Shown: in pieces, positions 17,170 to 54,785 of the stretch
Layout of the letters: the number at the start of each line of letters is the position of its first letter
How positions within the stretch are numbered: position 1 is the stretch's first letter
Source of the DNA: a plasmid
Sequence record: NZ_CP087960.1
Strand: one strand, 5' to 3'
DNA: 64,000 nucleotides
Made by a program: the position numbers and the translations under genes
Notes under the pieces: generated by a model
The model's input: only the letters and a program-made list of their open reading frames with translations
What the model was told of the DNA's origin: nothing
The model's database searches: none

Positions 17170-17192
17170 TTTTATTCCTTCCTGATTTGTTC

Positions 17193-33805: not shown

Positions 33806-33818
33806 GCAATAGCCCTCC

Positions 33819-40183: not shown

Positions 40184-40695
40184 TCATCACCCCTCTCATC
40201 ATGATCAGGAATAATTGGATATTGCTTTTCAAGTTCTTTTTCAGTGGTAAAACGCTCATCACCTTTTTGACCGTATGCAACATCTTTTGTCGCAAATTTT
40301 AGACGTTTTGATAATCCGAAACCGCCGAAAAAGCTAATGGCCAAAATTGCTATCAGCCATTTGAACGGCAAAGGATATTTAGCGATATTTATAGCTTGGG
40401 CAAATATTTTTTCATCATCAATCTTTTGAGTAAAGAAGTTAAAGCCAGGTCTACTTATTGTTTGAAATGTGAGTCGACCAGCATTAACAAATATTACCAA
40501 AACTATGAAAAGTGCCACACTTGAAATAACTGCTACAAATAACCGAATATCCTTTTGGTGTTCTTCCCGATTATCAGGAAGATTGGCACCATCTATTGTT
40601 TCTTTTCTTAAACTTAAAAATACTTGTTTAAAAAAAGAACCTGTTCTTTTAATAAGACTGGTCCTTTTTACCTTTTTTACTTTTCTAACTTTCAT
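40180..40695 (-). CDS. membrane protein (171 aa), T4SS-associated
   Basis: Two or three TM helices. Confidence 0.35.
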   Translation of the reverse strand: MKVRKVKKVKRTSLIKRTGSFFKQVFLSLRKETIDGANLPDNREEHQKDIRLFVAVISSVALFIVLVIFVNAGRLTFQTISRPGFNFFTQKIDDEKIFAQAINIAKYPLPFKWLIAILAISFFGGFGLSKRLKFATKDVAYGQKGDERFTTEKELEKQYPIIPDHDERGDE

Positions 40696-43144
40696 TCTTA
40701 GCTAACCACCCGTTCTGCCAATCATGTACTGCGTAAAAAGCCAAAATAACTGAGTCTCTTGCAGAATCAGAAACACTTTTTCTTTCGTCAGCATTCATTT
40801 TGAGCCAAGAGTCGCGAATATCTTTTTGATTATTTTGAGCGATTGCTAAATATAATTTGCTAAGAGTAGTAGGATCATTTCGATTGATCACTTCAAGAGA
40901 GCGAACATCTTTTTGCCCCACTAGTCCATTTAGATAATCAACTTTTTCACTCCAATTATTTAAAGAGTTATATTTCTGTTCAGGTGTTTCAGGTTTTGGA
41001 GTTGAGGGCTGTTCTAGCTTCTTCTTTGAAGAAGAAGTATCTTGCTTTTTAGGTGAACTAGTCTTTTTATTGCTCTTCTCAGCACTTGAATTTTTAACTA
41101 AAACGACTGAAGGCTTAGTTGACGAAACTGAGTGATTATTTCGATTATATCCAAACAAAAGTACTGAACTTAAAGTAGCCACAGCCAAGAATGAAATGAT
41201 ACCTATTTGCCAATGCTTTTTAGAATTCTTAGTTGTTAGTTCTTTTTTTGCGTCTTCAATTTCCTTATCTTTAGCGGTAATTTGTACTTCAGTCAGCTTT
41301 TTTTCTAAAGCGTCATATTGATCCTTCAATTTCTGAAATTCAGTGTTATCGACTGGAGGAGTCGAATTGTTTGGAATCTGTGGCGCTCCTGCAGGCTGAG
41401 CATAATAATAATTACCTGGAACTTGATAGAACGGCATTAATTGAGAATTAGGTGATTGTTGTTGTGTCTTATTAATTGCAGCTGCAATTGCATCTGGTAA
41501 TCCTTCAATTTGTTTCTTAGTTAATGCAAGTTCTTGATCTTTTTGATCTAACTCGCGAGCCTTCAATTCATTTTCTTTTTGCTTTTGAGCAAGTTTCGCT
41601 TGGGCAAATTGATATTTTTCACGTTTTTGATTAATTTCATCCCGTTTTTCTTGAATAGAACTAATGGCTCCATCAAGACCTACACGGAAGTTTTCTTCTG
41701 ATTTAGTAAACTCATTCTTCAAGCCTTGGTTGAAACGGTTTGAAAGTTCAACGCGTGTATCAGATAAGTTTCTGTTAATTTCATTAACTACCTTGTCATG
41801 TTCCCGTTGTTTCAAATCATTTTTGCTATCAGCTAGTCGAGTATCGATTTTTTCATTTAAAGTATCTAGTTCTTTTTGTTGGTTAATCTTAAATGAACGC
41901 ATGCTTTCCTGATGCTCATTTTGCAATTGAACTTTAAATTGATCTAGCTTATCTACATCTTGAGCTGTAAGGCGGGCTTCTTCATTATTGCACGCTTGCT
42001 CCATATTAGATTGATTCTTTTGCTTGTTATTCTGAGCATCTTGTTCTAATTGATTAATCTCATCTTTAAGCCGAACTGCTACGATATTTTCAACCGTGTT
42101 CTTAGTTAGCTCATTATACTTGGTAGTTAAAGCATCAATTAAACTATTTTCTAAATTTGATTTAGTAATATCAAATTCGCTTTGAAGAGAGGATAAACCT
42201 GTATCTTTCAATACTTCATCAATTGTTCTATTCAGTTCTTCATCAAACTTATCAGTAGGATTGTTCTTATAACCAAGTTGTGCTTTAATGACACTCAAAT
42301 CAAATGATTCTGCATTATATTTATCCGGAATTTTACTTAAGATATCCTCTGGATTTTCAAATTTACTACTTGGCGTAACTACTAATTCAGTTGGTACTGG
42401 TGCCGGCTGAGCCGGCGTAGCACGTTCTTGATTCTGTGCTGCAAATTCACTGGTTGGATCTGGAAGATCAAGATCATCAGTTGGCTGAATATCATTGTTT
42501 TCATTGGAAACAGACTCCGGCTCTGGAAGGCTATCCTCTAATGGTAAGCTTTCGTTATCTTCAAACGACTGACCTTCTTCATTAGAATTATTAGCTTTAG
42601 GTTGAGTCTGTTTAGGAGTATCTACCATAGAAAACTGTTTAACAATGTTACCATCTACACCTTCTACACCTTTAATGTCACCAACTACACCACTTGCTCG
42701 TTGTGATTGGAATACAGGTTGATTGTCTGTATTTTCTTCTACAGCAGTTTTATCTGTTTCCTCTGGTTCAAGTTCATCTGCATAATTAGTTTTAGCAGCA
42801 CCTAATTCAGACTGAATCTGATCTTGTAAATCTTCTAAATCCTCATTTTCTTCATCACTAAGTTCTTCATCTGCATAATCGCGACTAATTAAGCTAACAA
42901 TTCCAAATTGAGCATCTCCGGCTTCAATTTGAGTATCAAAAGTATACTCGTCTGCTACATCTCCACCGTCATCTTTGATAACAGTAAACGCAAATTCTTT
43001 CGTTTCGTGTGCCGATAAAGTCTTAGCATACTCCTTAACCCTATCATTTGCTTCTTTTAGTGGAAGTGGCTTTTGCTTAAAGATACCAGTCTTGAATAAC
43101 TTTTTGCCATCTTTAGGATAAGAAGTAAAAGTAACTTCTATCAT
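40685..43144 (-). CDS. large acidic coiled-coil membrane protein (819 aa), T4SS component candidate
   Basis: Long Q/E/K-rich coiled-coil, one TM near aa 615, ~180-aa C-terminal extracytoplasmic domain. Confidence 0.4.
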   Translation of the reverse strand: MIEVTFTSYPKDGKKLFKTGIFKQKPLPLKEANDRVKEYAKTLSAHETKEFAFTVIKDDGGDVADEYTFDTQIEAGDAQFGIVSLISRDYADEELSDEENEDLEDLQDQIQSELGAAKTNYADELEPEETDKTAVEENTDNQPVFQSQRASGVVGDIKGVEGVDGNIVKQFSMVDTPKQTQPKANNSNEEGQSFEDNESLPLEDSLPEPESVSNENNDIQPTDDLDLPDPTSEFAAQNQERATPAQPAPVPTELVVTPSSKFENPEDILSKIPDKYNAESFDLSVIKAQLGYKNNPTDKFDEELNRTIDEVLKDTGLSSLQSEFDITKSNLENSLIDALTTKYNELTKNTVENIVAVRLKDEINQLEQDAQNNKQKNQSNMEQACNNEEARLTAQDVDKLDQFKVQLQNEHQESMRSFKINQQKELDTLNEKIDTRLADSKNDLKQREHDKVVNEINRNLSDTRVELSNRFNQGLKNEFTKSEENFRVGLDGAISSIQEKRDEINQKREKYQFAQAKLAQKQKENELKARELDQKDQELALTKKQIEGLPDAIAAAINKTQQQSPNSQLMPFYQVPGNYYYAQPAGAPQIPNNSTPPVDNTEFQKLKDQYDALEKKLTEVQITAKDKEIEDAKKELTTKNSKKHWQIGIISFLAVATLSSVLLFGYNRNNHSVSSTKPSVVLVKNSSAEKSNKKTSSPKKQDTSSSKKKLEQPSTPKPETPEQKYNSLNNWSEKVDYLNGLVGQKDVRSLEVINRNDPTTLSKLYLAIAQNNQKDIRDSWLKMNADERKSVSDSARDSVILAFYAVHDWQNGWLAKNES

Positions 43145-43188: not shown

Positions 43189-43482
43189 CTAGAAAGTTGC
43201 CCCTCCGAACATTTGCCAGATCGTAGGTACTAATTGTGGAGCTAGTAATAGGACAGCACCACCAATTAAAGCTGCAACTAACATAGCTTTAGCTTTTTGA
43301 GCTGCTTGGCCACCAAACATCCAAAATAGACCAGCTGCAACAATTACAGCAACACCAATAAATCGTGCAGTATTTGTCATATTAGTAGATGCGTAACTTG
43401 CACCATTGTTAACTTGGCTCCAAACATTAGCACCAGTCATAAGTTTTAATTTTAAAAAGTTCATAATAAATACCTCGTTCAA
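43189..43482 (-). CDS. small hydrophobic protein (97 aa), VirB2/pilin-like candidate
   Basis: Two hydrophobic segments separated by a short loop. First gene after the pilus block. Confidence 0.3.
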   Translation of the reverse strand: MNEVFIMNFLKLKLMTGANVWSQVNNGASYASTNMTNTARFIGVAVIVAAGLFWMFGGQAAQKAKAMLVAALIGGAVLLLAPQLVPTIWQMFGGATF

Positions 43483-43645
43483 ATATCATCAAAATTTTCA
43501 ATAAAAAAAGAGCACCGAATCATATGAATGATTCGATGCTCAACAACATCTGTTAGTAACATTTTTAATCCTTTATTTATTTCAATAATTTTTGCTTATT
43601 ATAAAAAGCTGGTTCAGCTCTAATAACTTTCATTTTTATCACCAA

Positions 43646-43921
43646 CTATTTATCATTTGGTTTAAAGTCCTTATTAAATGGCTGGTTATTAGTACGATCT
43701 TTATGATAAAGCTTATTTGCTTCTGCTGTTGCACTGAACAAATCTTCTAAATCAAGCTGCTCTTGTGCCCAATCTAAAGCTGGTCCTTTTTCTTGCTTAA
43801 TTAAAGAAGTGCCTAGCTCTGTACACTTTTGTGTAAGCCTAGCTTTTTCATCGATATTATGCTTTTTTCGCCAGTCAGAAATAATCTTCTTTTGTTCTTT
43901 CGTTAAATTAGTAATTGTCAA
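43646..43921 (-). CDS. hypothetical protein (91 aa)
   Basis: ORF only. Confidence 0.3.
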   Translation of the reverse strand: MTITNLTKEQKKIISDWRKKHNIDEKARLTQKCTELGTSLIKQEKGPALDWAQEQLDLEDLFSATAEANKLYHKDRTNNQPFNKDFKPNDK

Positions 43922-44009
43922 ACTTTCTCACCTTCATATTCCCACCAACACACCCGATTAAAAGGAGTAAGAAAATCTCACCATTCTTCTTGCTCATAAT
44001 ATTTACCTT

Positions 44010-45353
44010 TTAATTAAAGAAACTCTCAATTTGCTCAACTAAATTATTTAAAAAGCCATGAATTCTTGCTTTACCAGTCTGATACATCTTGGCATCAGTA
44101 ACAGTTGGCTTTTGTCCTTCGGTTCCCTTAGCTTGATCTTGCCCAGGTTGATTTTGCTCTGAAGTTTTTCCATTTTCAGGTTTATTCTCTGGAGTTTTTT
44201 CAGGCAAAACCTTTTCTGATTTTGGATAAATAGTAAATTCTGGACTATATTTTCCATCTTTATCAGTGATAGGTGTCAAGATAACAATTGGATCGGAATT
44301 CTTAGCCATTGCTTCTTTTGGAGTCTCAGTATTTACAACATAGTAAGCATGATACTTACCATCAATTGGAACTTTAACTCTTGCAACGCCGTCCTTATTG
44401 CTTGTCTTGTCATGCTCAGTTGTCACTTGAGCAAAAGTTTTCATTGACTTCGGGTCAAGTTTAGCTGCACGACTAGCAACTTCTTTGCGAATCGTATCGT
44501 CTTTACGCATTTGTTCGACTTTCGCAACAAGCTTCTCTTCCTCTTCTGATTTCTTATCTGACTCTGATTTATCATCCGCATTCTTGCTCTTTTCTACAGA
44601 AGACTTAGATTGGTCATCTACTGTAGTACTTGAACTTGACTTTGAAGATGAAGTTTCAGAATTTGAAGACTTTGGTTCAGTTTGATCTAAATCAGCTTCA
44701 GGAGCTTGAGTTGATGCTTTTTCTGTTTTAGCATCACTAGAAGATGATTTCACTGATTTATAGGCGGAAGGAATTTTGGATTTGTTATTCGTACTGTTTG
44801 AGATAGTCTTATTAGCATTATCTTCAGTACTATTCTCATCAAATTCTTCGGAATCAGATTTATCTGCTTCTGATTTTTCTTCTTGTGAATTGGAATTATC
44901 AGCTTCTTTTAGGGCTTGATCAACTTGTTTGTCGCTTGGACTAGAATCATCTACCTTAAGCTTTTCTTTGATAATCGTATTCATTAAGTCAGTAACATCA
45001 TAAACAGTAAATTTTGAACCATTTACTCCCTCAAGACTATCTGAGTTAAGATCCTTTTCATTGGTAGCAATTACTTTTCGAATAACCATAGTTTGTTCTT
45101 TCAAACTTTGTGGGTTATCTGGATCTGCTTTTTTATCCTCAGCTTTAACATCTACGGAAGAGTTGTCTGTACTCTTTTCTGTCTTGGTATCATCTGTCTT
45201 CTTATTCTCATCTTCTTTTTTGTTTTGAACGATAGAAGATTGAGTAGAAGCAGATGGTTGTTCGGCCGCATGTACAATTGCTGGTGCAGCTAATGTAAGT
45301 ACATTAGCTGATAGCATAGCCGCAGACATAATTTTACTTCTTGCGTTTTTCAT
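44010..45353 (-). CDS. secreted pilin-like protein lacking a cell-wall sorting signal (447 aa)
   Basis: Signal peptide. Long acidic S/K/D/E low-complexity region. C-terminal domain with the pilin-like motif 'FTIYPKSEKV'. No LPxTG or hydrophobic tail. Confidence 0.45.
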   Translation of the reverse strand: MKNARSKIMSAAMLSANVLTLAAPAIVHAAEQPSASTQSSIVQNKKEDENKKTDDTKTEKSTDNSSVDVKAEDKKADPDNPQSLKEQTMVIRKVIATNEKDLNSDSLEGVNGSKFTVYDVTDLMNTIIKEKLKVDDSSPSDKQVDQALKEADNSNSQEEKSEADKSDSEEFDENSTEDNANKTISNSTNNKSKIPSAYKSVKSSSSDAKTEKASTQAPEADLDQTEPKSSNSETSSSKSSSSTTVDDQSKSSVEKSKNADDKSESDKKSEEEEKLVAKVEQMRKDDTIRKEVASRAAKLDPKSMKTFAQVTTEHDKTSNKDGVARVKVPIDGKYHAYYVVNTETPKEAMAKNSDPIVILTPITDKDGKYSPEFTIYPKSEKVLPEKTPENKPENGKTSEQNQPGQDQAKGTEGQKPTVTDAKMYQTGKARIHGFLNNLVEQIESFFN

Positions 45354-46170
45354 GTAGATATACCTTCTTTACTTTTTTCTTCTTTCTATTTTTTCGATGG
45401 GTGAACCAGTAGAATAAAGCCATTGCAGAAGTTACAACAATTGCTACAATAGCAGCTTTCCCTAATGAAGTTAGTCCACCATCAGCATTAATATTCTCAG
45501 CATGGTAAGGAACACGGTGCCCTCTAACTAGCAACCTATGAGTATTTTGGAAAAGCGGAGTACAAGTAACCAAAGTTACATAATCTTGATTAGGATCAAC
45601 CTTAAAATATTTCAAATTATTAGGCAAAACCTTTTTAATTTGATCTACCTGATAAGCGTGAATTTCCTTGTTCACTTTGATATAAAACTTGTCGCCTTTC
45701 TTTAACTTAGGCAAATCGGTAAAAAGACGATTAAGACTTAATCCACTATGCCCAGTAAGTACGGAGTGCTTACCTTTACCGCCTGTTGGCAGGCTGGTAT
45801 TTTCTAACACTCCAATACCGTTATCAAGTGCGGTTTGCGATGTTCCCATGTAAACCGGCAAAACTTCTTTAATCTTAGGAATACTTAAGGCTGCAACAGG
45901 CTTTAATTCAGCTTCAGCAACATCAACCGAATTTTTATTTTTCTTCTTAGTTGCAGAATTAGCAAATGGATCTACAGGTTTCTCAGTTTTAGGTGCCTTA
46001 TAAAAAGACTCCAGATAGCTACTACCGTGTCTCTCCGATCTTGCAACTTCAGCCTCTTGCTTTTGTGCCAAAAAGTAATCATTAAGAAAAGGATAAGTTG
46101 AAAGCCCTAAAATTGTTAGGCACAATAACCCCCAGATTACTAGCGTTAAAGGTTTTTTACCTTTTTTCAT
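45334..46170 (-). CDS. class C (pilus-specific) sortase
   Basis: N-terminal signal/TM. 'LTGHSG' His motif, 'VTLVTCTP' TLxTC catalytic Cys, conserved Arg, C-terminal TM plus basic tail. Confidence 0.8.
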   Translation of the reverse strand: MKKGKKPLTLVIWGLLCLTILGLSTYPFLNDYFLAQKQEAEVARSERHGSSYLESFYKAPKTEKPVDPFANSATKKKNKNSVDVAEAELKPVAALSIPKIKEVLPVYMGTSQTALDNGIGVLENTSLPTGGKGKHSVLTGHSGLSLNRLFTDLPKLKKGDKFYIKVNKEIHAYQVDQIKKVLPNNLKYFKVDPNQDYVTLVTCTPLFQNTHRLLVRGHRVPYHAENINADGGLTSLGKAAIVAIVVTSAMALFYWFTHRKNRKKKKVKKVYLHEKRKK

Positions 46171-48398
46171 TACTTGTCAGCTTTCTTTTTCTTTTGAGAA
46201 ACGTAAATGTATGTACCACCGCCAACAACAACTACCGCAACAAGAATTCCACCTAATTGAAGAAGTCCTTGGCTACCAGTAAATGGCATGCTGGTCTTTT
46301 CGTCGTTCTTGATTTCGATTGGGTTGCTCAAAGTTTGATCATTAGTATGAGGTCCAATCTTAAAGTTGACAGTTTCATTCATCAATTGGTATCCCTTAGG
46401 TGCCTTAACTTCTCGAAGCTTATAGTCACCTTCTGAGAAACCTTGTAAAGCAAATTTACCTTCCTTATCGGAAGTTAAAATACCAGCCTTAACGTCTGAA
46501 TAATTATCTACCCAGTCAATATCTTTTTCGCCCTTCTTACCATTTTCTTTGAAGCCGTTAAACCACTTACCAGTCTTCAAATCTTGAACGGCAAATTGAG
46601 CACCTTCCAGCTTCTGCTTAGCAATTCCCCAGCCCATGAAACCGGAAGATTCCTTAACGAAGTTAACACCATAGGTTACAGTATCATCGTGACGATGAAT
46701 TTCTTTATAGCCTGAACCATCATTCCAGCCTAAAGTAATGGTGTTAACGATTCGCTTATCTAATGGCGTATCATCAGTCAAAATTTCATCATATTCATAG
46801 TTAAGCTTCTTACCAGCTTGAGCGGCAACTAAGTCACTTACACTACCAGTAGTTAAGCCTTTAACAGCATCTTCGATTTTCTTATTATCATGAGAGTTAG
46901 CTGCATCTTGAAGTTTCTTAGCATCTGCTTCACTTAAGCCCTTAACAACATAGTTGACCCACCATTTACTATCTGAACCGTTTAAAATTTGGTAATCTTT
47001 ACCTTCTTCAAGCTTTTTACCATCAGGAGTTGTAATTACTAAGTGTCTTTCAGCAGGAACATCTTTTAAGTTCTTTTCTGGTTCATCACGAGTAAAGAAG
47101 GTATGGTAAGGTTCAGTCATTGCATTAGTACCAGTAGCATCAATTTGCCATGCAGAACCCATAATATTTTGTGGAATTACGGTCTTTGAATTAAAGTGCG
47201 CAAAATCACCACGGTGCAATGATTGATTTGGTCCAATACCATTAGTTAACTTCTTTTCTTCATTAGTCGGACCATAGTTGACAAGTGAACCTTGTAATTT
47301 AGTTGGATCAATACCATCTTCACCAATTTCAAAAGTTAGCTTGTTACGAACATCATTCTTGGCAATTGGTGAAATTGCTGCTCTTGCTTGGTCGTCTGCT
47401 TCGTCACCAGCCACCTCACTTGGCTCTTCAACGAAGTAGTACTTACCCATAATTAGATTATTAGCAGTTACTTTACCCTTACTATCAGTAGTTAAGACTC
47501 CACCAACCTTTTCACCTTTTCCTGGTTCACCACGATATAATTGGAACTTAGCGCCAGCAAGCGGTACTTTCTTTCCGCCATCCTTGTCAGCATTCCAAAG
47601 AACATATTTAGTTAGATCAAAGTTTAATTTTTGCGTCTTGTTCTTTGGATACAAGTGTGTGGTTGACAAGAATCCTGTACCATCTGGATTGGTATAAGGG
47701 TTTACGAAAATAATAGGTTCAGATGGTGGAGTTACAAATCCACGTGGTGTCTTAGTTTCAACTGCTGCATAGTAGTGATATTTTTGTGGCTTAGAAGCAT
47801 CATAGGCTTTAACGTTTTCAAAAGTTATGTCACCATTGCTATCAATTGCCTTAGTTGCTACCTTTTGAGCTTTAGCCAAGTATTCGTTTTTGCTCATCTC
47901 TTGAGTAAGCTTAGCTGGATCTACACCGTGCGTAGCATCAAAAGCGTTATTGAAAGACTTTTGAATTGATTCACTAATGTACTTAACGCGTCCATTCATA
48001 GCTTGTTGGTCAGCTGCACTGTTAGTCCAACCAGTTAAGCCCTTACCATCATTGAATTTTTCGTTTACCACATCGGTAATGTCATACAAAGTAAATTCGA
48101 CTTTACCCATTGTATTAGGATTGTAGTGTGTAATTTGGTCTGGTAATTCCTTAGACTTATCAGTACCATCGTTCTTGATCTTGTTTTGTTCAAAGAATTT
48201 GGCATCTTTAGTGTCATACATCATCTTATGAACAGTAATGTTAGTAGTACTTGGTGCTACTTGATCTGCTTTAACAATTGACGGATGTTGAATCATAACC
48301 GCCGCTTGAACACCTACTAAAGCAGTACCACATAAACTCAAAACAACTCCTCCGGTTGCAAGAGACTTTCGAAATCCTTTTTTCATAGAATTATTCAT
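46170..48398 (-). CDS. sortase-dependent major pilin-like protein (742 aa)
   Basis: Signal peptide. Pilin motif 'HLYPKNKTQK' (YPKN). E-box 'YKLREVKAPKGY'. Sorting signal 'MPFTG' followed by a hydrophobic stretch and 'KKKKADK'. Confidence 0.75.
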   Translation of the reverse strand: MNNSMKKGFRKSLATGGVVLSLCGTALVGVQAAVMIQHPSIVKADQVAPSTTNITVHKMMYDTKDAKFFEQNKIKNDGTDKSKELPDQITHYNPNTMGKVEFTLYDITDVVNEKFNDGKGLTGWTNSAADQQAMNGRVKYISESIQKSFNNAFDATHGVDPAKLTQEMSKNEYLAKAQKVATKAIDSNGDITFENVKAYDASKPQKYHYYAAVETKTPRGFVTPPSEPIIFVNPYTNPDGTGFLSTTHLYPKNKTQKLNFDLTKYVLWNADKDGGKKVPLAGAKFQLYRGEPGKGEKVGGVLTTDSKGKVTANNLIMGKYYFVEEPSEVAGDEADDQARAAISPIAKNDVRNKLTFEIGEDGIDPTKLQGSLVNYGPTNEEKKLTNGIGPNQSLHRGDFAHFNSKTVIPQNIMGSAWQIDATGTNAMTEPYHTFFTRDEPEKNLKDVPAERHLVITTPDGKKLEEGKDYQILNGSDSKWWVNYVVKGLSEADAKKLQDAANSHDNKKIEDAVKGLTTGSVSDLVAAQAGKKLNYEYDEILTDDTPLDKRIVNTITLGWNDGSGYKEIHRHDDTVTYGVNFVKESSGFMGWGIAKQKLEGAQFAVQDLKTGKWFNGFKENGKKGEKDIDWVDNYSDVKAGILTSDKEGKFALQGFSEGDYKLREVKAPKGYQLMNETVNFKIGPHTNDQTLSNPIEIKNDEKTSMPFTGSQGLLQLGGILVAVVVVGGGTYIYVSQKKKKADK

Positions 48399-48417
48399 TG
48401 AATTATCCCCAGTTCTT

Positions 48418-49086
48418 CTAAATTAGTTCGCCTTGAACTACAAGACGATTCACTCCGCCATTAGCACATGTATAGACTGTAACTATTGGCTTTTCCTGAT
48501 CTTTAGGCATATAAAAAGCGCTACCCTGAACTGGTTTGCCGTCAACAATTTTGACTGTTGGTGGCACTACCTTCTTGCTGGTAACGCGATATTTATATCG
48601 TTGGCCATTATAGCCGGTTAGAATTATTTGGTCTCCCAAATTAATTCTGTGTAAATCACTTAAAAGAATGCCTGGTTGTTCCATATCATGACCAGCCACG
48701 CAAAAGTTGCCTTTACCAAATTCACTATCGAGATAGTATGACTTACCAACTCCTAATGCTAACGTATAGTTATTGGCACGATTATAGATCGGAAGGCGAA
48801 TACCAATTGAAGGAATAATCAGATATCCGTTAGGATACTTATCAACCCCGAGTTGCAATGCCTTCTTTTTATTTCTAATCAACTCATTTTTAGTAGAAGG
48901 CTTAATATCTTTTTCTTCTTTTAAGGCCGCTCTATTTGTTTTCATCGTTACGGCGCTATTCACTTTATGATCTAAAATCTGGTCATTTTGATAAGTTTGA
49001 TGCCAACAAAAAGCCGCAATCAGTAATACAAGAAATGTACCGATTGCGACTAATTTTCCAGATTTAGTTTTAAAAAAAGCTTTCAT
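48418..49086 (-). CDS. sortase (class A/C, 222 aa)
   Basis: N-terminal TM. 'CVAGHDM' His, 'TVYTCANGG' catalytic Cys, Arg present. Confidence 0.75.
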   Translation of the reverse strand: MKAFFKTKSGKLVAIGTFLVLLIAAFCWHQTYQNDQILDHKVNSAVTMKTNRAALKEEKDIKPSTKNELIRNKKKALQLGVDKYPNGYLIIPSIGIRLPIYNRANNYTLALGVGKSYYLDSEFGKGNFCVAGHDMEQPGILLSDLHRINLGDQIILTGYNGQRYKYRVTSKKVVPPTVKIVDGKPVQGSAFYMPKDQEKPIVTVYTCANGGVNRLVVQGELI

Positions 49087-49097
49087 GCTAATTTACT

Positions 49098-50918
49098 TTA
49101 TCTTTCTTTATTCTTCTTAGATTCATACAATGCGTAACCACCTACAGCACAAGTAATAGTGATTGCGGCAGTTGCTTCGATTAACAAGTAATCACTACCA
49201 GTCGTTGGAATTGGCTGAGTATTATCTGTCATCTCACCTGTAACAACATCGGGCGCAGTTGGCCCAACGTTTGGAAGTTTAACAGGAGTAGTACCTAAGG
49301 CATATCCATTAGGTGATTTAATTTCAACTGCATAGTAATCACGTCTTGTCGAGTCAAGTAAAACATTATCAAATCTTGCATGACCGTCCTTATCAGTAGT
49401 TGCAATATATGGCTGTCGGTCATTGTGACCTGTTACAAGCTCACCATTAACTTGACGTAAAGCTTGTTTTTTTGCATCTTCTACTGATATTTGATTAAAG
49501 GGTTCACCTAAATCTCTAATAAGTACAAATTGAGCACCTTCAATTCCAGCGCCACTAATATTTTTCTTAGTAATTTCAAAAGGTTGATGCTTTTTATCAT
49601 TAACAACCTTTCCTAAATCAACCTGACGTTGAGGATTATCACCAGTTAACTGATCAATGTCTCTTTCATAAGAAGCATTATATTGACCATCGGGTTGTTT
49701 TATCTCTTTCAAATGATACTTCTTACCAAGTGGTAAGTTATCGAAAGTTACACGACCATTATTGTCAGCTGTTTTTCTTTCCATGAAGCCATCAGAAGTT
49801 AATACAAATTCAGTACCTGGCAAGATTTTAGTGTTATTATTGCCTGAGCCTCTTTTGACAAAAGTCAAACTACCAAATGATGGCTTAACATGAACGGTCA
49901 TATCAGATGAGCCTTTCATATCTACAGTTGTTGCTTTAATGCCTAATTTAGCAACATTCTGAATGCCCGGATCTTTAACTCCATAAATCCATGCTACTTT
50001 TGCCTTTTTATTCCAGTGACCGGTAGCTTTTACTTTAAATGAAAAATCGGAAGTATTTGTCATGTCATTATATGGTACAGATACTTTTAAATTGTCATCT
50101 GCATTGACATTATTGAAGTCGACCTTGCTACCATTTTTTCTAGTTCCAGATAAATACTTCTCGTTTTTTGAATCAACTGCATGAACTTGAACATCATGCA
50201 TGTTACTAGATGGGACTTTAAAATTCTTTTCGTATTTATTGCCGTGGAAATCACCACTACCAATATTTAATGTCGTTGGATCAAAGCCTAATTTGGCAGG
50301 GTTTAAAACAATTTCTGATTGACTAGCATTACTATGTTTTTTTGCCTCTGCAACTAAACGATTAACTTTATCCCTAATTTGCGGTGCAAAATGAGCTACA
50401 CTATCACCAGTTATTTTACCATCATATGGTGATCTGTCATTTGGACAAGCAACTAAGTGGACGGCAGTTTGATATAACCAATAATCTGCTAAATCATAAT
50501 CAGCACCGGCACCATCAATACTCTCAAATGATTTATCATGGCCCTTACTAAAATCAGTGATTAGCCATTGAACTGCGGGATTAGCTTGATATTGCTTAAC
50601 AAGCTGTTTATTACTTGGAGAATCTTTATTGAAGTTAATACAAAAGATATAAGAATCACGACCACTTTTACCTTTTTCCTTAATAATGTTGATTCTGTGA
50701 TAACCATTACCAGCTACCCACTGGCCATCATATTGAGCATGTAATTTTCCATCTGAAGCGGAAACCCAAGTCTTCTGGGCATTATTAGTTGTAATCGTCT
50801 GAGGACCATTATCATCTGCAAATGCCACATAAGTGTTTCCCATTGATGAGGCAAGTCCACAAAGAGTTAGTCCTGTTGCAAAAAGCAAGACAAGTCTTTT
50901 CTTTTTTCTAACTCTCAT
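49098..50918 (-). CDS. LPxTG-anchored adhesin / minor (tip) pilin with Cna-B-type domains (606 aa)
   Basis: Signal peptide. Two E-box motifs 'YHLKEIKQPDGY' and 'YYAVEIKSPNGY'. Sorting signal 'IPTTG' + hydrophobic stretch + 'KKNKER'. Confidence 0.7.
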   Translation of the reverse strand: MRVRKKKRLVLLFATGLTLCGLASSMGNTYVAFADDNGPQTITTNNAQKTWVSASDGKLHAQYDGQWVAGNGYHRINIIKEKGKSGRDSYIFCINFNKDSPSNKQLVKQYQANPAVQWLITDFSKGHDKSFESIDGAGADYDLADYWLYQTAVHLVACPNDRSPYDGKITGDSVAHFAPQIRDKVNRLVAEAKKHSNASQSEIVLNPAKLGFDPTTLNIGSGDFHGNKYEKNFKVPSSNMHDVQVHAVDSKNEKYLSGTRKNGSKVDFNNVNADDNLKVSVPYNDMTNTSDFSFKVKATGHWNKKAKVAWIYGVKDPGIQNVAKLGIKATTVDMKGSSDMTVHVKPSFGSLTFVKRGSGNNNTKILPGTEFVLTSDGFMERKTADNNGRVTFDNLPLGKKYHLKEIKQPDGQYNASYERDIDQLTGDNPQRQVDLGKVVNDKKHQPFEITKKNISGAGIEGAQFVLIRDLGEPFNQISVEDAKKQALRQVNGELVTGHNDRQPYIATTDKDGHARFDNVLLDSTRRDYYAVEIKSPNGYALGTTPVKLPNVGPTAPDVVTGEMTDNTQPIPTTGSDYLLIEATAAITITCAVGGYALYESKKNKER

Positions 50919-51024
50919 ATAAAATCCTTTCTTAAAACAAAAAAACGCCCAGCTCTAAAACTTGTATTTTATACATTGTTTTAAAACTAGGCGTTTTAAA
51001 TACTATTTAATTTTTAACCAAATA

Positions 51025-53502
51025 TTAACGTAGGTCTTTCTTCTTTGAAGTAGCAAGACCTAACAAGCTACCAACGCTTGCAAGTGCTAAACCAATTAAT
51101 CCAGCAAGGTTAGTGTCACGACTGCCGGTAGTTGGTAATACACTACTTGCTTTCACTGTGTGATCCTTTGCATGCTTTGAAGCATAAGATGAAAATGCGT
51201 TTGAATTTAAAGTAGTACTTTCTTTAGCTTCTACCTTAGCAATTGCATGTGCAACTACTCTACTTTCAACCTTAGATGATACTACACCAACAAATTCACC
51301 TTTAGCATTATAAACTTTGTTTTCCTTTACAGTGTAATCAGATGGCATGACTTGACCTTTTGAGTCAATTAACTTATCATTGCCAGCCTTGTAAAAGTTA
51401 GTATGTTCTGCTTTTTCTTCTGCTACCTTTTTAGCTTCTTCTTGAGCTTTCTTAACTGCTTCTTTAGCTGCTTCTTCTTTCTCAATTTTAGCTAATACAA
51501 ACTTAGCAGTAGTTAAAGCAGTTTCTTTTTCTGCTAATGTAGCCTTTACTTCAACAAGTTTAGCAGTTAAATCATCAGCAGATTTCTTAGCTTGGTCAAG
51601 TTCAGCAGTTGCATCAGTCAATGCTTGAGCAGTTTCAGCTACATTTTCCTCAGCATTTTGAAGAGCTGATAAATTGCTCTTTAAGCTGTTTAACTTATCT
51701 TGAGCTTGTTTAGCATCAGCCTTAGCTTGACTTAATTTTGCAAAGGCTTGATCGTAATCAGCTTTTACTTTATCAAACTCTTTTTGCATGTTAGCAGCAT
51801 CGGATTTTGCACCGTCTAAGTCTTTCTTAGTTGCCTCGTAAAAATCGCTAGCCTTCCATAAATCGAAATCCTTATCTGATTTAGACTCAGTCAATTTATT
51901 TAATTTTTCTTGAGCTGACTTTAAGGAAGATTGTAGGTTGGCGAGATCGTTATTAAGCTTAGTTACATTCGCATTAGCTACTTCATAAGCATTCTTTGCA
52001 GATGATTGTTTTTGCCGTGCTTGTGCAAGTTTAGTTGCAACAACATTGTATGCTTTTTCAGCATTGTTTACAGTGTTAGTAGCTTCACCGTATGAAGTTT
52101 GCTTAACTGCTAATTCGTGTTTAGCATCTTTTAAACTTGCCTTTAATCCGTCATAGTTAGGAATTTCAAACTTTTGCTCCTTAGGATCAACTGCCCACTT
52201 AGTATAAGAATCAAATTGAATGAATCCCTTATCTTTTCTAAAGGAAACGCCAAAATATTCTGGATTAGGGTTACCAGGTGTATTTGCTAGCATAGAGGTT
52301 TCATCACCTGTTAACTGAAAGGCGTGACCCCAATTTGCATCGGCATCTCCAAAAATCATACTTAACATATGATAGTAAACTCCACGTTTAACATCATTCA
52401 TATTTTCAGCATACCATGGAGTACCAATTGATTCACTTGACATACTTAAGTCTGGAATCAATTTATCTGCAGCGTCAATTGCATTAGTATCATGATCAAA
52501 AGTAGGTACAGTAGAATGAGTTGCAATATAGTTGGTATGAGCAAGTGAAGCAGGAGTTACAACCAAATTTGGTTTTAGTCCAACTTGTTGACGCACATCA
52601 TTTAAAATACCAGCTACCCAAAGAGTTAATTCCTTTTGTTGAGCATCGGTTAATTGAGTAACTCCATCTTTATTATGCGCAACTGCTTCCTTTTTAGCCT
52701 CTTGATCATCTTTATACGAATTTGCATTGTATGCCGCGTCAACAACTGCAGTATTGACGCGATCGGGCATACCATACTTGTTGTATAAGAAGTAATTCTT
52801 AGGCATAGTTATTACATTAATAGAATCAACTTTTGTTTGTAAACCATTAACTGTACTTTGTGCAGCATCAAGTTCAGCTTTTGCTGAATCAGCTTGTTGA
52901 CGAGCTTGGGATAAAGAAGATTGTTTATCGTTAACTTCGTTAGTAGCTTCAGAAACTGCATTATTAGCATTATTAACTTGTTCTGCTAATTGATCTTTTT
53001 GAGCATTAGCATTTTGAACAGCCTTTTGTGCTTCTGCAACTTTATTTTGATCATTATTAACTTCTTGTTGTGCTTGGTTAACTTGATCTTGAGTTGCATT
53101 CAAGTTAGCTTTAGCATCATCAATTGCTTTTTGATTTTGAGCTAGTTTATTTGAGTATTCATTTACCCAATAGTTAGCCCCATCAACATCTTTTTGAGCG
53201 TCAGCAAGATTTGATGATTGCTTGTTAGCTTCCTTTTGTGCAGCTTCTTGAGCTTTAGCTTTGTTAGCAACTTCTTGTTCTTGTTGAACAATATTAGCTT
53301 TTACTTCATTAATATGTTCTGGAGTAGCTTCCTTTTGTATTTCCTTAGCAGAATTATTAGCCTTAGTAGCTTCTTCTACTTGCTTTTGAGTGGAAGTTAC
53401 ACTGTCAGCATGTACAGTACTTGGCTTGTTTACTGCAAGGAGCATAGCTCCTGATACTAATGTAGCTGTAGCTAATTTTTTAACAATCTTCTTTTCTTCC
53501 AT
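51025..53502 (-). CDS. LPxTG-anchored coiled-coil surface protein, PrgA/Sec10 surface-exclusion-like (825 aa)
   Basis: Signal peptide. Long A/Q/K/E/N coiled-coil halves flanking a central globular domain. C-terminal 'LPTTG' + hydrophobic stretch + 'KKKDLR'. First gene of the minus-strand block. Confidence 0.6.
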   Translation of the reverse strand: MEEKKIVKKLATATLVSGAMLLAVNKPSTVHADSVTSTQKQVEEATKANNSAKEIQKEATPEHINEVKANIVQQEQEVANKAKAQEAAQKEANKQSSNLADAQKDVDGANYWVNEYSNKLAQNQKAIDDAKANLNATQDQVNQAQQEVNNDQNKVAEAQKAVQNANAQKDQLAEQVNNANNAVSEATNEVNDKQSSLSQARQQADSAKAELDAAQSTVNGLQTKVDSINVITMPKNYFLYNKYGMPDRVNTAVVDAAYNANSYKDDQEAKKEAVAHNKDGVTQLTDAQQKELTLWVAGILNDVRQQVGLKPNLVVTPASLAHTNYIATHSTVPTFDHDTNAIDAADKLIPDLSMSSESIGTPWYAENMNDVKRGVYYHMLSMIFGDADANWGHAFQLTGDETSMLANTPGNPNPEYFGVSFRKDKGFIQFDSYTKWAVDPKEQKFEIPNYDGLKASLKDAKHELAVKQTSYGEATNTVNNAEKAYNVVATKLAQARQKQSSAKNAYEVANANVTKLNNDLANLQSSLKSAQEKLNKLTESKSDKDFDLWKASDFYEATKKDLDGAKSDAANMQKEFDKVKADYDQAFAKLSQAKADAKQAQDKLNSLKSNLSALQNAEENVAETAQALTDATAELDQAKKSADDLTAKLVEVKATLAEKETALTTAKFVLAKIEKEEAAKEAVKKAQEEAKKVAEEKAEHTNFYKAGNDKLIDSKGQVMPSDYTVKENKVYNAKGEFVGVVSSKVESRVVAHAIAKVEAKESTTLNSNAFSSYASKHAKDHTVKASSVLPTTGSRDTNLAGLIGLALASVGSLLGLATSKKKDLR

Positions 53503-54713: not shown

Positions 54714-54785
54714 AATTCAGTGAAGACATCACTGAATCAAGTGTATGTAAACTAAATATTTTATTTTGTTGATGTAATCAACAAT

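What the first reader, a model, noticed from the sequence alone, without database searches (positions are those of the whole stretch)
43189..53502. Sortase-assembled pilus operon embedded at the head of a Gram-positive conjugative T4SS operon
The first ~10 kb of the long minus-strand conjugation block encodes, in order:
- a PrgA/Sec10-like LPxTG coiled-coil protein (51025-53502);
- a Cna-B/E-box adhesin with an IPTTG signal (49098-50918);
- a sortase (48418-49086);
- a YPKN + E-box major-pilin-like protein with an MPFTG signal (46170-48398);
- a class C sortase with TLVTC and a C-terminal anchor (45334-46170);
- a third pilin-like secreted protein (44010-45353).

These are immediately followed by T4SS genes (VirD4, VirB6, VirB3, VirB4, hydrolase). 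In the pCF10/pIP501 paradigm, this upstream position holds surface-exclusion and aggregation adhesins anchored by the housekeeping sortase. Here the adhesin function appears to be supplied by a dedicated class-C-sortase pilus, which would act as the mating-pair formation or stabilisation organelle of this element. Plasmid-borne pili are known in enterococci (for example the bee locus), but a pilus operon transcriptionally fused to the T4SS genes is not a standard architecture.
Basis: partly seen in the sequence, partly recalled or inferred. Interest (0 to 1): 0.55.

Follow-up and report, generated by a model that had tools for sequence, protein, structure and literature searches.

The report
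Sortase pilus cassette beside conjugation genes
A Lactobacillus conjugative plasmid carries a complete sortase-built pilus gene set just upstream of its DNA-transfer machinery; the same pairing recurs in hundreds of Enterococcus faecium plasmids, so the pilus may be how these Gram-positive donors grab recipient cells, but nobody has tested that.

Summary

What the tools added:
- The 742-aa shaft pilin is a homologue of E. faecium PilA/Fms21.
- The core of class A-like sortase, shaft pilin, class C sortase and single-domain pilin recurs in about 380 PLSDB plasmids. 355 of 382 are typed conjugative and 373 are Enterococcus.
- In all 12 loci with enough flank, T4SS genes lie within about 10 kb, and two unrelated T4SS families are involved.
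- The 606-aa tip protein probably carries a thioester adhesin domain, like the adhesin that pLS20 needs for mating in liquid.
- The third protein has a basal-pilin fold but no membrane anchor. It ends in a conserved M-Y-Q-T-G motif and a short amphipathic tail.
- A strong, positionally conserved terminator hairpin separates the pilus block from the T4SS block, so "transcriptionally fused" is unproven.

A 2024 paper already noted that the E. faecium pilA cluster adjoins a T4SS, is co-induced with it, and might belong to the conjugation apparatus.

Verdict: a real pilus module linked to conjugation. The mating role is plausible but inferred, and this is a new member of a known kind.

The parts
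51025..53502 (-). SEC10/PgrA-type surface-exclusion protein, coiled coil, LPTTG wall anchor
   Evidence: TIGR04320 at 255 bits (cut-off 70). LPTTG at residue 789 followed by a membrane helix. Homologues sit next to the cassette in L. johnsonii, L. jensenii, L. salivarius and L. murinus.
49098..50918 (-). Probable tip adhesin: N-terminal candidate thioester domain, two SpaA-type stalk domains, IPTTG sorting signal
   Evidence: PF17802 twice. Invariant Cys93 in FCIN fits the [YFL]C-hydrophobic-hydrophilic thioester motif. Weak NF012162 hit, 21.5 bits against a cut-off of 40. The N-terminal model is low-confidence (pLDDT 59), but its best fold match is the thioester domain of E. faecium TIE86 (6fwy, E 3e-7).
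48418..49086 (-). Class A-like sortase carried by the element (TVYTC); presumed wall-anchoring enzyme
   Evidence: PF04203, E 5e-19. Best solved relatives are class A sortases 7f87/7cfj, E 8e-16. No NCBIfam class model reaches its cut-off. RefSeq names its homologues class A sortase.
46170..48398 (-). Shaft (major) pilin of the PilA/Fms21 family: YPKN pilin motif, E-box, MPFTG sorting signal
   Evidence: GramPos_pilinD1 (E 2e-16) plus SpaA (E 9e-23). NF033902 at 93.8 bits, cut-off 95. 32-34% identical over 94% of its length to E. faecium Fms21/PilA. The sorting motif M-P-x-T-G-S-Q is conserved across the lactobacillus loci; E. faecium PilA reads VPMTGS.
45334..46170 (-). Class C (pilus-polymerising) sortase: TLVTC, DPF lid, C-terminal membrane anchor
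   Evidence: NF033745 at 221.6 bits, cut-off 160. Motifs and membrane helix. Its start overlaps the stop of the shaft pilin gene by 1 nt.
44010..45353 (-). Single-domain basal-pilin-like protein: signal peptide, low-complexity insert, YPKS lysine motif, C-terminal M-Y-Q-T-G plus a tail of about 20 residues, no membrane helix
   Evidence: PF16555, E 3e-7. The D1 domain is modelled at pLDDT 80-95, and the best fold matches are the basal pilins SpaE and EbpB. P-K-S of the Y/F-P-K-S lysine motif and M, Q, T, G of the C-terminal motif are invariant in 18 homologues. The tail pattern holds in all loci examined.
43646..43921 (-). Small conserved ORF (91 aa), function unknown
   Evidence: No family hits. 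94.5% identical in pHL20_1. An ORF of similar size (88 aa) sits in the same position in L. jensenii, though its homology was not tested.
43510..43541 (-). Intrinsic-terminator-like hairpin with a T7 run, between the pilus block and the T4SS block
   Evidence: 14-bp stem with 6 GC pairs. Free energy -22.1 kcal/mol, z = -5.7, and 0 of 200 shuffles fold as well. A hairpin plus T-run in the same position occurs in pHL20_1, L. johnsonii and L. jensenii.
43189..43482 (-). TrbC/VirB2-family small membrane protein, first gene of the T4SS block
   Evidence: PF04956 at 28.4 bits, cut-off 27.9. Two membrane helices. The same family is annotated or hit in L. johnsonii and L. jensenii.
40685..43144 (-). 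819-aa coiled-coil protein with one membrane helix, function unknown, conserved upstream of VirD4
   Evidence: No family hits. Homologues at 25-26% identity lie before VirD4 in L. johnsonii.
37931..40695 (-). VirD4 coupling protein, CD1115 family, encoded as two overlapping ORFs (171-aa membrane part and 750-aa ATPase part)
   Evidence: NF045973 at 326 bits, cut-off 250. It aligns to the single 937-aa L. johnsonii protein. The junction is an ATGA overlap preceded by an AGGGG ribosome-binding site. The same split occurs in L. jensenii.
34746..37904 (-). pLS20_p028-family VirB6-like channel protein
   Evidence: NF045890 at 213.8 bits, cut-off 150. 23% identical to the pLS20 protein.
31778..34743 (-). 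VirB3-position small ORF (107 aa) and VirB4 ATPase in two ORFs (206 and 675 aa)
   Evidence: VirB4-family hits below the curated cut-offs. 30% identical to pLS20 VirB4, E 2e-102. The 107-aa ORF matches DUF5592 proteins of L. johnsonii.
30474..31778 (-). Cell-wall hydrolase (lysozyme plus M23 peptidase), VirB1-like role
   Evidence: PF18013, E 6e-30, and PF01551, E 1e-12.
24252..25871 (-). MobL/MobP2 relaxase of the same element
   Evidence: PF18555, E 2e-64. 30% identical to the pLS20 relaxase.

Best explanation
The region encodes a self-contained, sortase-assembled three-part pilus. This pilus is a conserved accessory module of conjugative elements in Lactobacillales, and it most likely serves as the donor's mating adhesin.

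**Proposed mechanism**
1. The class C sortase cleaves the shaft pilin at MPFTG and joins its threonine to the YPKN lysine of the next subunit.
2. The 606-aa protein is joined first, through its IPTTG signal, and so sits at the pilus tip.
3. Its N-terminal thioester-type domain bonds covalently to a surface molecule of the recipient cell. The thioester adhesin of pLS20 is thought to work this way.
4. The 447-aa single-domain pilin accepts the finished fibre on its YPKS lysine and ends polymerisation.
5. The class A-like sortase carried by the element fixes the base to the cell envelope. This makes assembly independent of the host's own sortase.
6. The SEC10/PgrA protein, encoded first, prevents futile donor-donor mating.
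7. The T4SS genes downstream are expressed with the pilus genes, probably by regulated read-through of the terminator at 43510-43541.

**Shown here:** gene content, motifs, folds, homology and conserved linkage to T4SS genes.

**Inferred:** polymerisation, the order of subunits, thioester chemistry, co-transcription and the role in mating.
For: **It is a pilus cassette**
- Class C sortase above its curated cut-off. The shaft pilin has a D1 domain, YPKN, an E-box and a sorting signal.
- The third protein has a basal-pilin fold.
- The cassette genes are tightly packed, with gaps of -20 to 19 nt between tip, sortase, shaft, sortase and third gene.

**It is linked to conjugation**
- The cassette lies within about 10 kb of T4SS genes in every locus with enough flank. 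These are L. gasseri, L. johnsonii, L. jensenii, the Ligilactobacillus agilis chromosome, L. salivarius, L. plantarum, a metagenomic contig and E. faecium pLG1-type plasmids.
- In E. faecium E7025 plasmid 4 the cassette precedes a different, PrgI/CD1110-type T4SS.
- The shaft pilin and the third pilin each hit about 381-382 plasmids. Of these, 353-355 are typed conjugative.

**Functional analogy**
- pLS20 has the same T4SS family. It carries a thioester adhesin gene at the equivalent place upstream of VirD4.
- That adhesin and its motif cysteine are needed for efficient mating in liquid (PMC8092201).
- The window's tip protein has the same cysteine motif, and its best fold match is a class II thioester domain.

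**Published support**
- The E. faecium pilA cluster and the adjacent T4SS are induced together (PMC11134301).
- pRUM-type vanA plasmids carrying pilA transferred, and those lacking it did not (PMC4070583).
- The sortase SrtD and the adhesin CnaC are needed for efficient transfer of pCW3.

**Transcription**
- No minus-strand promoter-like site scoring 10 of 12 or better lies in the intergenic gap before the VirB2-like gene. The only nearer site at that score (50440) is inside the tip gene.
Against: - No experiment links any member of this cassette to DNA transfer.
- A strong, positionally conserved terminator separates the pilus block from the T4SS block. Expression could therefore be independent.
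- In E. faecium an oppositely oriented gene and several small ORFs lie between the cassette and the T4SS.
- Gene order relative to VirD4 differs in L. salivarius.
- In L. plantarum pLB1-2B, tblastn with the window's T4SS proteins found only VirD4, and it lies 9 kb from an intact cassette, so the T4SS there may be incomplete. The pilus may keep a use of its own.
- PilA pili are treated in the literature as colonisation or biofilm factors.
- The plasmid counts are dominated by one E. faecium plasmid lineage and are not independent observations.
- The thioester assignment rests on a low-confidence model (pLDDT 59), a sub-threshold HMM hit and a motif. The partner glutamine was not identified.
- The third protein lacks a canonical sorting signal, so the anchoring step is unclear.
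Confidence: 0.55

Rival explanations
1. The pilus is cargo. It is a host-colonisation or biofilm pilus that binds mucus or extracellular matrix, carried on the plasmid because it benefits the host bacterium. It lies next to the T4SS only through shared ancestry of the plasmid backbone.
For: - PilA/Fms21 pili are described as putative adhesins linked to gut colonisation, biofilm and virulence. In E. faecium the cluster is induced on contact with colonic epithelium (PMC11134301).
- A conserved terminator separates the cassette from the T4SS block.
- The cassette is intact in L. plantarum pLB1-2B, where tblastn found only VirD4 among the T4SS genes.
- Thioester adhesins in pathogens generally target host molecules (PMC8092201 discussion).
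Against: - Linkage to T4SS genes survives 32-75% protein divergence, moves between plasmids and a chromosomal element, and spans two unrelated T4SS families. Shared backbone ancestry alone does not easily explain this.
- The cassette sits beside the surface-exclusion gene, which is a conjugation function.
- In E. faecium it is induced together with the T4SS.
- The two roles do not exclude each other.
Confidence: 0.3
2. The proteins are not polymerised. They act as separate wall-anchored adhesins of the MSCRAMM kind, and the sortases only anchor them.
For: - RefSeq labels one homologue of the tip protein as an MSCRAMM family protein.
- The shaft pilin scores 1.2 bits under the curated major-pilin cut-off.
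- The sorting motifs (MPFTG, IPTTG) are non-canonical.
Against: - A bona fide class C sortase with a lid motif is encoded between the pilin genes.
- The shaft protein has the D1 domain, the YPKN lysine motif and an E-box.
- The E. faecium homologue PilA is cited as forming pili (PMC11134301, citing Hendrickx 2008 and Kim 2010).
- The third protein has a basal-pilin fold with a conserved lysine motif.
Confidence: 0.05
3. The module, or the whole transfer region, is decaying and no longer functional in this plasmid.
For: - VirD4 and VirB4 are each encoded as two ORFs.
- VirD4 is not listed as a CDS in pHL20_1.
- MOB-suite types the related Lactobacillus plasmids as non-mobilizable.
- The L. apodemi copy is clearly degraded.
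Against: - All pilus ORFs are intact.
- The exact 447-aa protein is seen on 191 contigs.
- The VirD4 split has a clean ATGA overlap with a ribosome-binding site and recurs in L. jensenii. The VirB4 split recurs in L. johnsonii, L. jensenii, E. faecium and pLS20. These look like conserved gene organisation, not damage.
- A MobL relaxase is present, so the MOB-suite call is a detection failure.
Confidence: 0.07

Closest known systems
Enterococcus faecium pilus gene cluster 1 (PGC-1: fms21/pilA-fms20) on pLG1-type conjugative megaplasmids
   Same: - The shaft pilin is homologous (32-34% identity over 94% of its length).
- The core order is the same: class A-like sortase, shaft pilin, class C sortase, single-domain pilin ending in x-x-T-G plus a short tail.
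- It lies just upstream of a VirD4(CD1115)/pLS20_p028 T4SS.
- Adjacency, co-induction and the suggestion that it belongs to the conjugation apparatus are already published (PMC11134301).
   Different: - The second fimbrial protein (Fms20-like, RrgB-type domains) is encoded downstream in E. faecium. The window instead has an upstream tip protein with a candidate thioester domain that has no detectable homologue in the E. faecium locus.
- The E. faecium locus has no adjacent SEC10/PgrA gene.
- An oppositely oriented CAP-domain gene separates its cassette from the T4SS.
TIEpLS20, the thioester-domain adhesin of Bacillus subtilis plasmid pLS20 (gene 34)
   Same: - The T4SS family is the same: VirD4 CD1115, p028, VirB4 and MobL relaxase, at 23-31% identity.
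- The adhesin gene lies in the operon head, upstream of VirD4.
- It has an N-terminal thioester-type cysteine motif (YCID in pLS20, FCIN here) followed by Ig-like stalk domains.
- It is required for efficient mating in liquid (PMC8092201).
   Different: - TIEpLS20 is a monomer with no sorting signal, and pLS20 has no sortase.
- Here the adhesin has a sortase signal and is encoded with a polymerising sortase and a shaft pilin.
- Sequence similarity is limited to the cysteine motif (hhalign E 0.06).
pCF10 PrgA/PrgB/PrgC surface-protein block of Enterococcus faecalis
   Same: - Surface proteins with LPXTG-type signals are encoded at the head of the T4SS genes.
- A SEC10/PgrA surface-exclusion homologue is present.
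- The adhesin slot precedes the channel genes. In E. faecium E7025 plasmid 4 the pilus cassette occupies this slot before a Prg-type T4SS.
   Different: - No family search on the block's proteins returned a PrgB-type polymer adhesin domain.
- The adhesin here is a polymerised pilus with its own sortases, not a monomer anchored by the host sortase (general statement in PMC12857230).
Clostridium perfringens pCW3 SrtD/CnaC
   Same: A sortase carried by the element and a sortase-substrate adhesin contribute to efficient conjugative transfer.
   Different: - The sortase is class D and the adhesin is a single collagen-adhesin-type protein.
- There is no class C sortase or shaft pilin.
- The conjugation system (Tcp) is unrelated.
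SpaCBA/SpaFED pili of Lacticaseibacillus rhamnosus GG and Ebp pili of E. faecalis
   Same: - They are three-component sortase-assembled pili.
- The best fold matches of the third protein are the basal pilins SpaE and EbpB. The best sequence matches of the shaft pilin are SpaD and EbpB.
- Ebp pili are cited as aiding cell contact and gene transfer (La Rosa 2016, cited in PMC11134301).
   Different: - Those loci are chromosomal and are not described as linked to a T4SS (from my own knowledge, not tested here).
- Their basal pilins have canonical LPXTG signals with a membrane helix.
- They have no dedicated class A-like sortase and no thioester tip domain.

Membership tests
Sortase-assembled (SpaA/Ebp-type) Gram-positive pilus locus | Class C sortase with TLxTC catalytic motif and lid | tested here: met
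   NF033745 at 221.6 bits, cut-off 160. TLVTC at residues 199-203, DPF lid motif, C-terminal membrane helix.
Sortase-assembled (SpaA/Ebp-type) Gram-positive pilus locus | Shaft pilin with pilin-motif lysine (YPKN), E-box and a C-terminal sorting signal | tested here: met
   YPKN at 250, E-box at 659, MPFTG followed by a membrane helix and a basic tail, PF16555 plus PF17802. The curated major-pilin model is missed by 1.2 bits (93.8 against 95).
Sortase-assembled (SpaA/Ebp-type) Gram-positive pilus locus | Basal pilin with an acceptor lysine and a canonical LPXTG signal with membrane helix | tested here: not met
   The fold (SpaE/EbpB best matches) and the YPKS lysine are present. The C-terminus is M-Y-Q-T-G plus about 20 amphipathic residues with no membrane helix, and this holds in all homologues.
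Sortase-assembled (SpaA/Ebp-type) Gram-positive pilus locus | Covalent polymer demonstrated (ladder on gels, fibres by electron microscopy) | not testable with these tools
   Needs experiment. The E. faecium homologue PilA is cited as forming pili.
E. faecium PGC-1 (fms21/pilA-fms20) cluster | Homologous shaft pilin and the core order class A-like sortase, pilin, class C sortase, single-domain pilin | tested here: met
   Protein identities to the E. faecium locus are 34% (shaft), 36% (class A-like sortase), 48% (class C sortase) and 33% (third protein), in the same order.
E. faecium PGC-1 (fms21/pilA-fms20) cluster | Fms20-type second fimbrial protein downstream | tested here: not met
   In the window the gene after the third pilin is a 91-aa ORF with no family hits. 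The window's tip protein has no hit in the E. faecium locus, and its N-terminal domain hits only lactobacillus plasmids. Fms20 itself was not searched against the window.
pLS20-type Gram-positive conjugation system | VirD4 of the CD1115 family and a pLS20_p028 channel protein, with VirB4 and a MobL/MobP2 relaxase | tested here: met
   NF045973 at 326 bits (cut-off 250) and NF045890 at 214 bits (cut-off 150). VirB4 is 30% and the relaxase 30% identical to pLS20. PF18555 MobL, E 2e-64.
pLS20-type Gram-positive conjugation system | conAn processive antitermination genes at the operon start | tested here: inconclusive
   BLASTP of pLS20 ORFs against window ORFs found no homologue of the first operon genes. 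These genes may be too divergent to detect, and the RNA component was not searched.
Thioester-domain (TIE) adhesins | Conserved cysteine in a [YFL]C-hydrophobic-hydrophilic motif | tested here: met
   FCIN with Cys93, invariant in 10 homologues down to 35% identity. Motif definition from PMC8092201.
Thioester-domain (TIE) adhesins | Thioester-domain fold and a partner glutamine | tested here: inconclusive
   The best Foldseek matches are the E. faecium TIE86 thioester domain (E 3e-7, probability 1.0). However, the model has pLDDT 59 and TM-scores of 0.34-0.40. Invariant Gln150 and Gln320 are candidates, and neither could be assigned. NF012162 scores 21.5 bits against a cut-off of 40.
pCF10-type Prg surface-protein block | SEC10/PgrA surface-exclusion domain protein | tested here: met
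   TIGR04320 at 255 bits, cut-off 70.
pCF10-type Prg surface-protein block | PrgB-type aggregation substance with a polymer adhesin domain | tested here: not met
   None of the Pfam or NCBIfam hits for the ten proteins of the block is such a domain.
Conjugative (mating) pilus, defined by function | Required for mating-pair formation or DNA transfer | not testable with these tools
   The only support is comparative linkage and published co-induction.

The most novel reading that the evidence does not exclude
The sortase pilus is physically coupled to the type IV secretion channel instead of being wall-anchored like ordinary Gram-positive pili. The idea has three steps:
- The conserved single-domain third pilin receives the fibre on its YPKS lysine.
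- It has no membrane-spanning sorting signal, so its invariant M-Y-Q-T-G motif and amphipathic tail dock it to a T4SS component. The adjacent TrbC/VirB2-like membrane protein is one candidate. Alternatively, the dedicated class A-like sortase joins it to such a component.
- This would be a true T4SS-associated conjugative pilus in Gram-positive bacteria, built with sortase chemistry.
Probability: 0.08. Interest if true: 0.85.

Novelty: new member of a known kind. Interest (0 to 1): 0.45.

Why it matters
Current reviews state that Gram-positive conjugation systems do not encode conjugative pili and rely on monomeric wall-anchored adhesins (PMC12857230). How donors that lack a PrgB-type adhesin find recipients is largely unknown.

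This cassette travels with conjugation genes across Lactobacillus, Ligilactobacillus, Lactiplantibacillus and Enterococcus, and with two T4SS families. Its Enterococcus version sits on the pLG1-type megaplasmids of hospital E. faecium.

If it is the mating adhesin, three things follow:
- The pilA/fms21 marker, long scored as a virulence gene, would really be a transfer function.
- Sortase inhibitors or anti-pilin antibodies could reduce plasmid spread.
- The tip-adhesin domain would help set which recipients a plasmid can reach in the gut.

The question is directly testable with simple deletions and mating assays.

Tried and rejected
- **Sequence link between the tip protein and pLS20 TIE.** The profile comparison aligned only the 15-residue cysteine motif (E 0.06). 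tblastn of the N-terminal domain against plasmids hit only five lactobacillus plasmids. Homology is therefore not shown, only analogy and a shared motif.
- **PDB sequence searches for the tip N-terminal domain.** Single-sequence and profile searches found only the C-terminal stalk domains.
- **Structure prediction of the tip domain.** The model was poor (pLDDT 59) because only 17 homologues exist in the word-indexed search. The fold match is treated as suggestive only.
- **Sortase class of the 222-aa enzyme.** No NCBIfam class model reached its cut-off. Class C scored 56.8 and class E 51.8. It is called class A-like only from PDB relatives and RefSeq naming.
- **Genome-contig scan with the third-pilin alignment.** It returned only 6 loci, several on short contigs. 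L008, L009 and L010 could not be judged for T4SS linkage.
- **Search for conAn antitermination homologues.** BLAST found none.
- **Promoter scan.** It found fewer promoter-like sites than shuffled sequence gives (48 against 60), so it is not informative.
- **Literature searches.** None found a direct experimental test of PilA-family pili in conjugation.
- **Decay or pseudogene reading of split VirD4 and VirB4.** Considered and largely rejected, because the splits are conserved in other species.

Full report
**1.

- The 825-aa protein has a SEC10/PgrA surface-exclusion domain (TIGR04320, 255 bits, cut-off 70) and an LPTTG anchor.
- The 606-aa protein has two SpaA-type Ig-like domains and an IPTTG signal.
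- The 222-aa and 278-aa proteins are sortases.
- The 742-aa protein has a Gram-positive pilin D1 domain and SpaA domains.
- The 447-aa protein has a partial pilin D1 domain.

A motif scan confirmed YPKN at residue 250, the E-box YKLREVKAPKGY and MPFTG in the 742-aa protein. It also confirmed TLVTC and a C-terminal membrane helix in the 278-aa sortase, and TVYTC in the 222-aa sortase.

The 278-aa enzyme is class C by the curated model (221.6 bits against 160). The 222-aa enzyme reaches no class cut-off. Its best solved relatives are class A sortases (E 8e-16), and RefSeq names its homologues class A.

The downstream genes are as described, with some additions. In order they are:
- a 91-aa ORF;
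- a TrbC/VirB2-family gene;
- an 819-aa coiled-coil protein;
- VirD4 of the CD1115 family;
- a pLS20_p028 VirB6-like protein;
- a small VirB3-position ORF;
- VirB4;
- a lysozyme/M23 hydrolase;
- a thioredoxin;
- further on, a MobL relaxase.

**2. Where the window comes from**

The window is a Lactobacillus gasseri-group plasmid. It is 89-93% identical to pHL20_1 over the pilus and transfer regions. The exact 447-aa protein is recorded as a plasmid protein of L. gasseri and occurs on 191 contigs.

The transfer genes are distant relatives of those of Bacillus subtilis pLS20:

| Gene | Identity to pLS20 |
|---|---|
| VirD4 | 31% |
| VirB4 | 30% |
| p028 | 23% |
| Relaxase | 30% |
| Primase | 33% |

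They lie in the same order as in pLS20.

**3. The cassette is a conserved unit and is not rare**

The shaft pilin is a homologue of E. faecium Fms21/PilA, at 32-34% identity over 94% of its length. tblastn finds it in 381 PLSDB plasmids, of which 373 are Enterococcus and 353 are typed conjugative. The third pilin gives nearly the same set: 382 plasmids, 355 typed conjugative.

In an E. faecium pLG1-type megaplasmid the gene order is as follows:
- class A sortase, PilA, class C sortase, single-domain pilin, a small ORF and an Fms20-like fimbrial protein;
- then one oppositely oriented gene and several small ORFs;
- then VirD4 (CD1115), a pLS20_p028 protein and VirB4.

In lactobacilli the five-gene set is tip, class A-like sortase, shaft, class C sortase and third pilin. 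It occurs in:
- L. johnsonii plasmids and contigs;
- L. jensenii;
- a chromosomal element of Ligilactobacillus agilis;
- L. salivarius;
- L. murinus;
- Lactiplantibacillus plantarum.

An unassigned metagenomic contig carries the four core genes, but its tip position is cut off by the contig end.

Wherever enough flanking sequence exists, T4SS genes lie within about 10 kb.

In E. faecium E7025 plasmid 4 the same cassette precedes a different T4SS type, with a PrgI-family protein, VirB4 of the CD1110 family and PrgN. Linkage to two unrelated T4SS families is the strongest comparative argument here. It suggests the association is functional and not just inherited from one backbone.

**4. What each part looks like**

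*Tip protein.* The N-terminal 345 residues have no Pfam match. Among homologues down to 35% identity, Cys93 in Y-x-F-C-[IV] and the stretch D-Y-W-L-Y-Q are invariant. FCIN fits the thioester-domain motif [YFL]C-hydrophobic-hydrophilic. The pLS20 adhesin has YCID, and its cysteine is essential for mating (PMC8092201).

A predicted structure of this region was of low confidence (pLDDT 59). Its only significant fold matches were the thioester domain of E. faecium TIE86 (E 3e-7). A sub-threshold NCBIfam hit to thioester-forming surface proteins points the same way. I therefore call the thioester domain probable. The partner glutamine is unassigned.

*Third protein.* A model gives a confident single D1 domain (pLDDT 80-95). 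A disordered low-complexity insert interrupts it, and a disordered linker and short terminal helix follow it. The best fold matches are the basal pilins SpaE and EbpB.

P-K-S of its Y/F-P-K-S lysine motif and M, Q, T, G of its C-terminal M-x-Q-T-G motif are invariant in 18 homologues. No homologue has a membrane helix after this motif. There is only a tail of about 20 residues, rich in aromatic residues.

*Sorting motifs.* These are family-wide:
- the shaft pilin signal is M-P-x-T-G-S-Q in the lactobacillus loci (E. faecium PilA reads VPMTGS);
- the tip signal is [IL]-P-x-T-G-S;
- SEC10 has a canonical LP[TQ]TG.

**5. Is it transcriptionally fused to the T4SS?**

Gene spacing is tight:
- within the cassette, gaps run from -20 to 19 nt;
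- within the T4SS block, they run from -20 to 44 nt;
- the larger gaps are 106 nt (SEC10 to tip), 88 nt (third pilin to the 91-aa ORF) and 163 nt (91-aa ORF to the VirB2-like gene).

That last gap holds a strong terminator-like hairpin at 43510-43541. It has a 14-bp stem, a T7 run, a free energy of -22.1 kcal/mol and z = -5.7. A hairpin plus T-run occupies the same position in pHL20_1, L. johnsonii and L. jensenii, although the sequences differ.

This argues against a simple fused operon, but it does not prove separation.
- pLS20-type and other Gram-positive conjugation operons contain internal terminators that are read through by processive antitermination (PMC8191782, PMC8955417).
- No convincing promoter-like site lies between the hairpin and the VirB2-like gene.
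- I found no conAn homologue by BLAST.
- In E. faecium, the pilA cluster and the adjacent T4SS genes rise together in RNA-seq (PMC11134301).

Co-regulation with attenuation is my preferred reading. It is inferred, not shown.

**6. Most likely function**

The best-supported explanation is a three-part sortase pilus that acts as the donor's mating adhesin. The reasons are:
- the conserved linkage described in section 3;
- the neighbouring surface-exclusion gene;
- the positional and domain analogy with the pLS20 thioester adhesin, which is needed for efficient conjugation in liquid;
- the precedent of pCW3, where the element's own sortase SrtD and the adhesin CnaC are needed for efficient transfer;
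- the field observation that pRUM-type vanA plasmids with pilA transferred while those without it did not.

The main rival is that the pilus is a colonisation or biofilm factor carried as cargo, which is how PilA is usually described. The conserved terminator fits that view. So does the intact cassette in L. plantarum pLB1-2B, where tblastn with the window's T4SS proteins found only VirD4. The two roles could coexist. No experiment yet decides between them.

**7. Novelty**

The gene cluster type is known and annotated many times. The E. faecium homologue is a classic pilus locus. [quoted passage not shown]

New here:
- the Lactobacillus members, with a SEC10 gene and a probable thioester tip;
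- the cross-genus and cross-T4SS-family conservation;
- the family-wide atypical basal pilin;
- the conserved internal terminator.

A 2025 review still states that Gram-positive systems do not encode conjugative pili, so a positive experimental result would matter.

I rate this a new member of a known kind with moderate interest.

Noticed in passing
window 37931-40695 (-): VirD4 is encoded as two ORFs: a 171-aa membrane part and a 750-aa ATPase part. They join at an ATGA overlap preceded by an AGGGG ribosome-binding site. L. johnsonii has a single 937-aa protein, L. jensenii has the same split (141 + 742 aa), and pHL20_1 lists no VirD4 CDS. This looks like a conserved split coupling protein, not damage.
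   Followed up: partly
window 31778-34439 (-): VirB4 is also in two ORFs (206 and 675 aa). The same arrangement occurs in L. johnsonii, L. jensenii, E. faecium and pLS20 itself.
   Followed up: partly
window 43189-43482 (-): A TrbC/VirB2-family small membrane protein (PF04956, just above the gathering score) is the first gene of the T4SS block in a Gram-positive element. It is conserved in L. johnsonii and L. jensenii. VirB2-like pilins in Gram-positive T4SS loci are treated as remarkable in a 2025 review.
   Followed up: no
window 54533-55684 (-): Four tandem tRNA-like elements pass the Rfam tRNA gathering score (35-52 bits). They have oversized anticodon-loop regions, with inserts of 11, 14, 18 and 114 nt. 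ARAGORN calls none of them a tRNA. They lie in the ORF-poor 2.3 kb upstream of the SEC10 gene. pHL20_1 has two hits in the same place, one of normal length; none were found in L. johnsonii, L. jensenii or E. faecium loci. Their function is unknown.
   Followed up: partly
window 44010-44090 (-), C-terminus of the 447-aa protein: The motif M-[YFV]-Q-T-G, followed by an amphipathic, aromatic-rich tail of about 20 residues, replaces the usual LPXTG signal with membrane helix and basic tail. This holds in homologues from Lactobacillus, Ligilactobacillus and Lactiplantibacillus; the E. faecium homologue keeps only the T-G and the tail (V-V-S-T-G). It resembles the shaft pilin's M-P-x-T-G and may be an unusual sortase substrate or a docking signal.
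   Followed up: partly
L019 (E. faecium E7025 plasmid 4) 15234-33836: The same sortase/PilA-like/sortase/single-domain-pilin cassette precedes a Prg-type T4SS (PrgI family, VirB4 CD1110) instead of the pLS20 type. The cassette appears to move between conjugation backbones.
   Followed up: partly
L011 (Ligilactobacillus apodemi, 999-kb contig) 9992-17604: This is a degraded copy. The third pilin is split by a frameshift and its motif is changed to MYQTR. No shaft pilin or sortase is detectable nearby, and a SEC10-like fragment lies downstream.
   Followed up: no
window 2498-3559 (+), 9924-10985 (-), 62649-63710 (+): There are three copies of a 353-aa transposase ORF. The one scanned (2498-3559) has HTH_38 plus rve domains, an IS30-like architecture. 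The copy at 9924-10985 lies just beside a short (497-aa) topoisomerase ORF.
   Followed up: no
window 4095-7992 (+): A RamC/LanC-like kinase-type lanthipeptide synthetase (766 aa) is followed by an ABC transporter (527 aa). This is a likely class III/IV lanthipeptide locus carried on the plasmid.
   Followed up: no
window 14683-17169 (-), 22592-23485 (-), 58633-59161 (-): Other plasmid functions are present: a DarA-type anti-restriction polyvalent protein, a PBECR4 nuclease-domain protein and a YafQ/RelB toxin-antitoxin pair.
   Followed up: no
PLSDB typing of NZ_CP072179, NZ_CP040855 and NZ_CP040856: MOB-suite types these Lactobacillus plasmids as non-mobilizable, although they encode a MobP2/MobL relaxase, VirD4, VirB4 and a VirB6-like protein. 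Automated typing seems to miss this conjugation family in lactobacilli.
   Followed up: no
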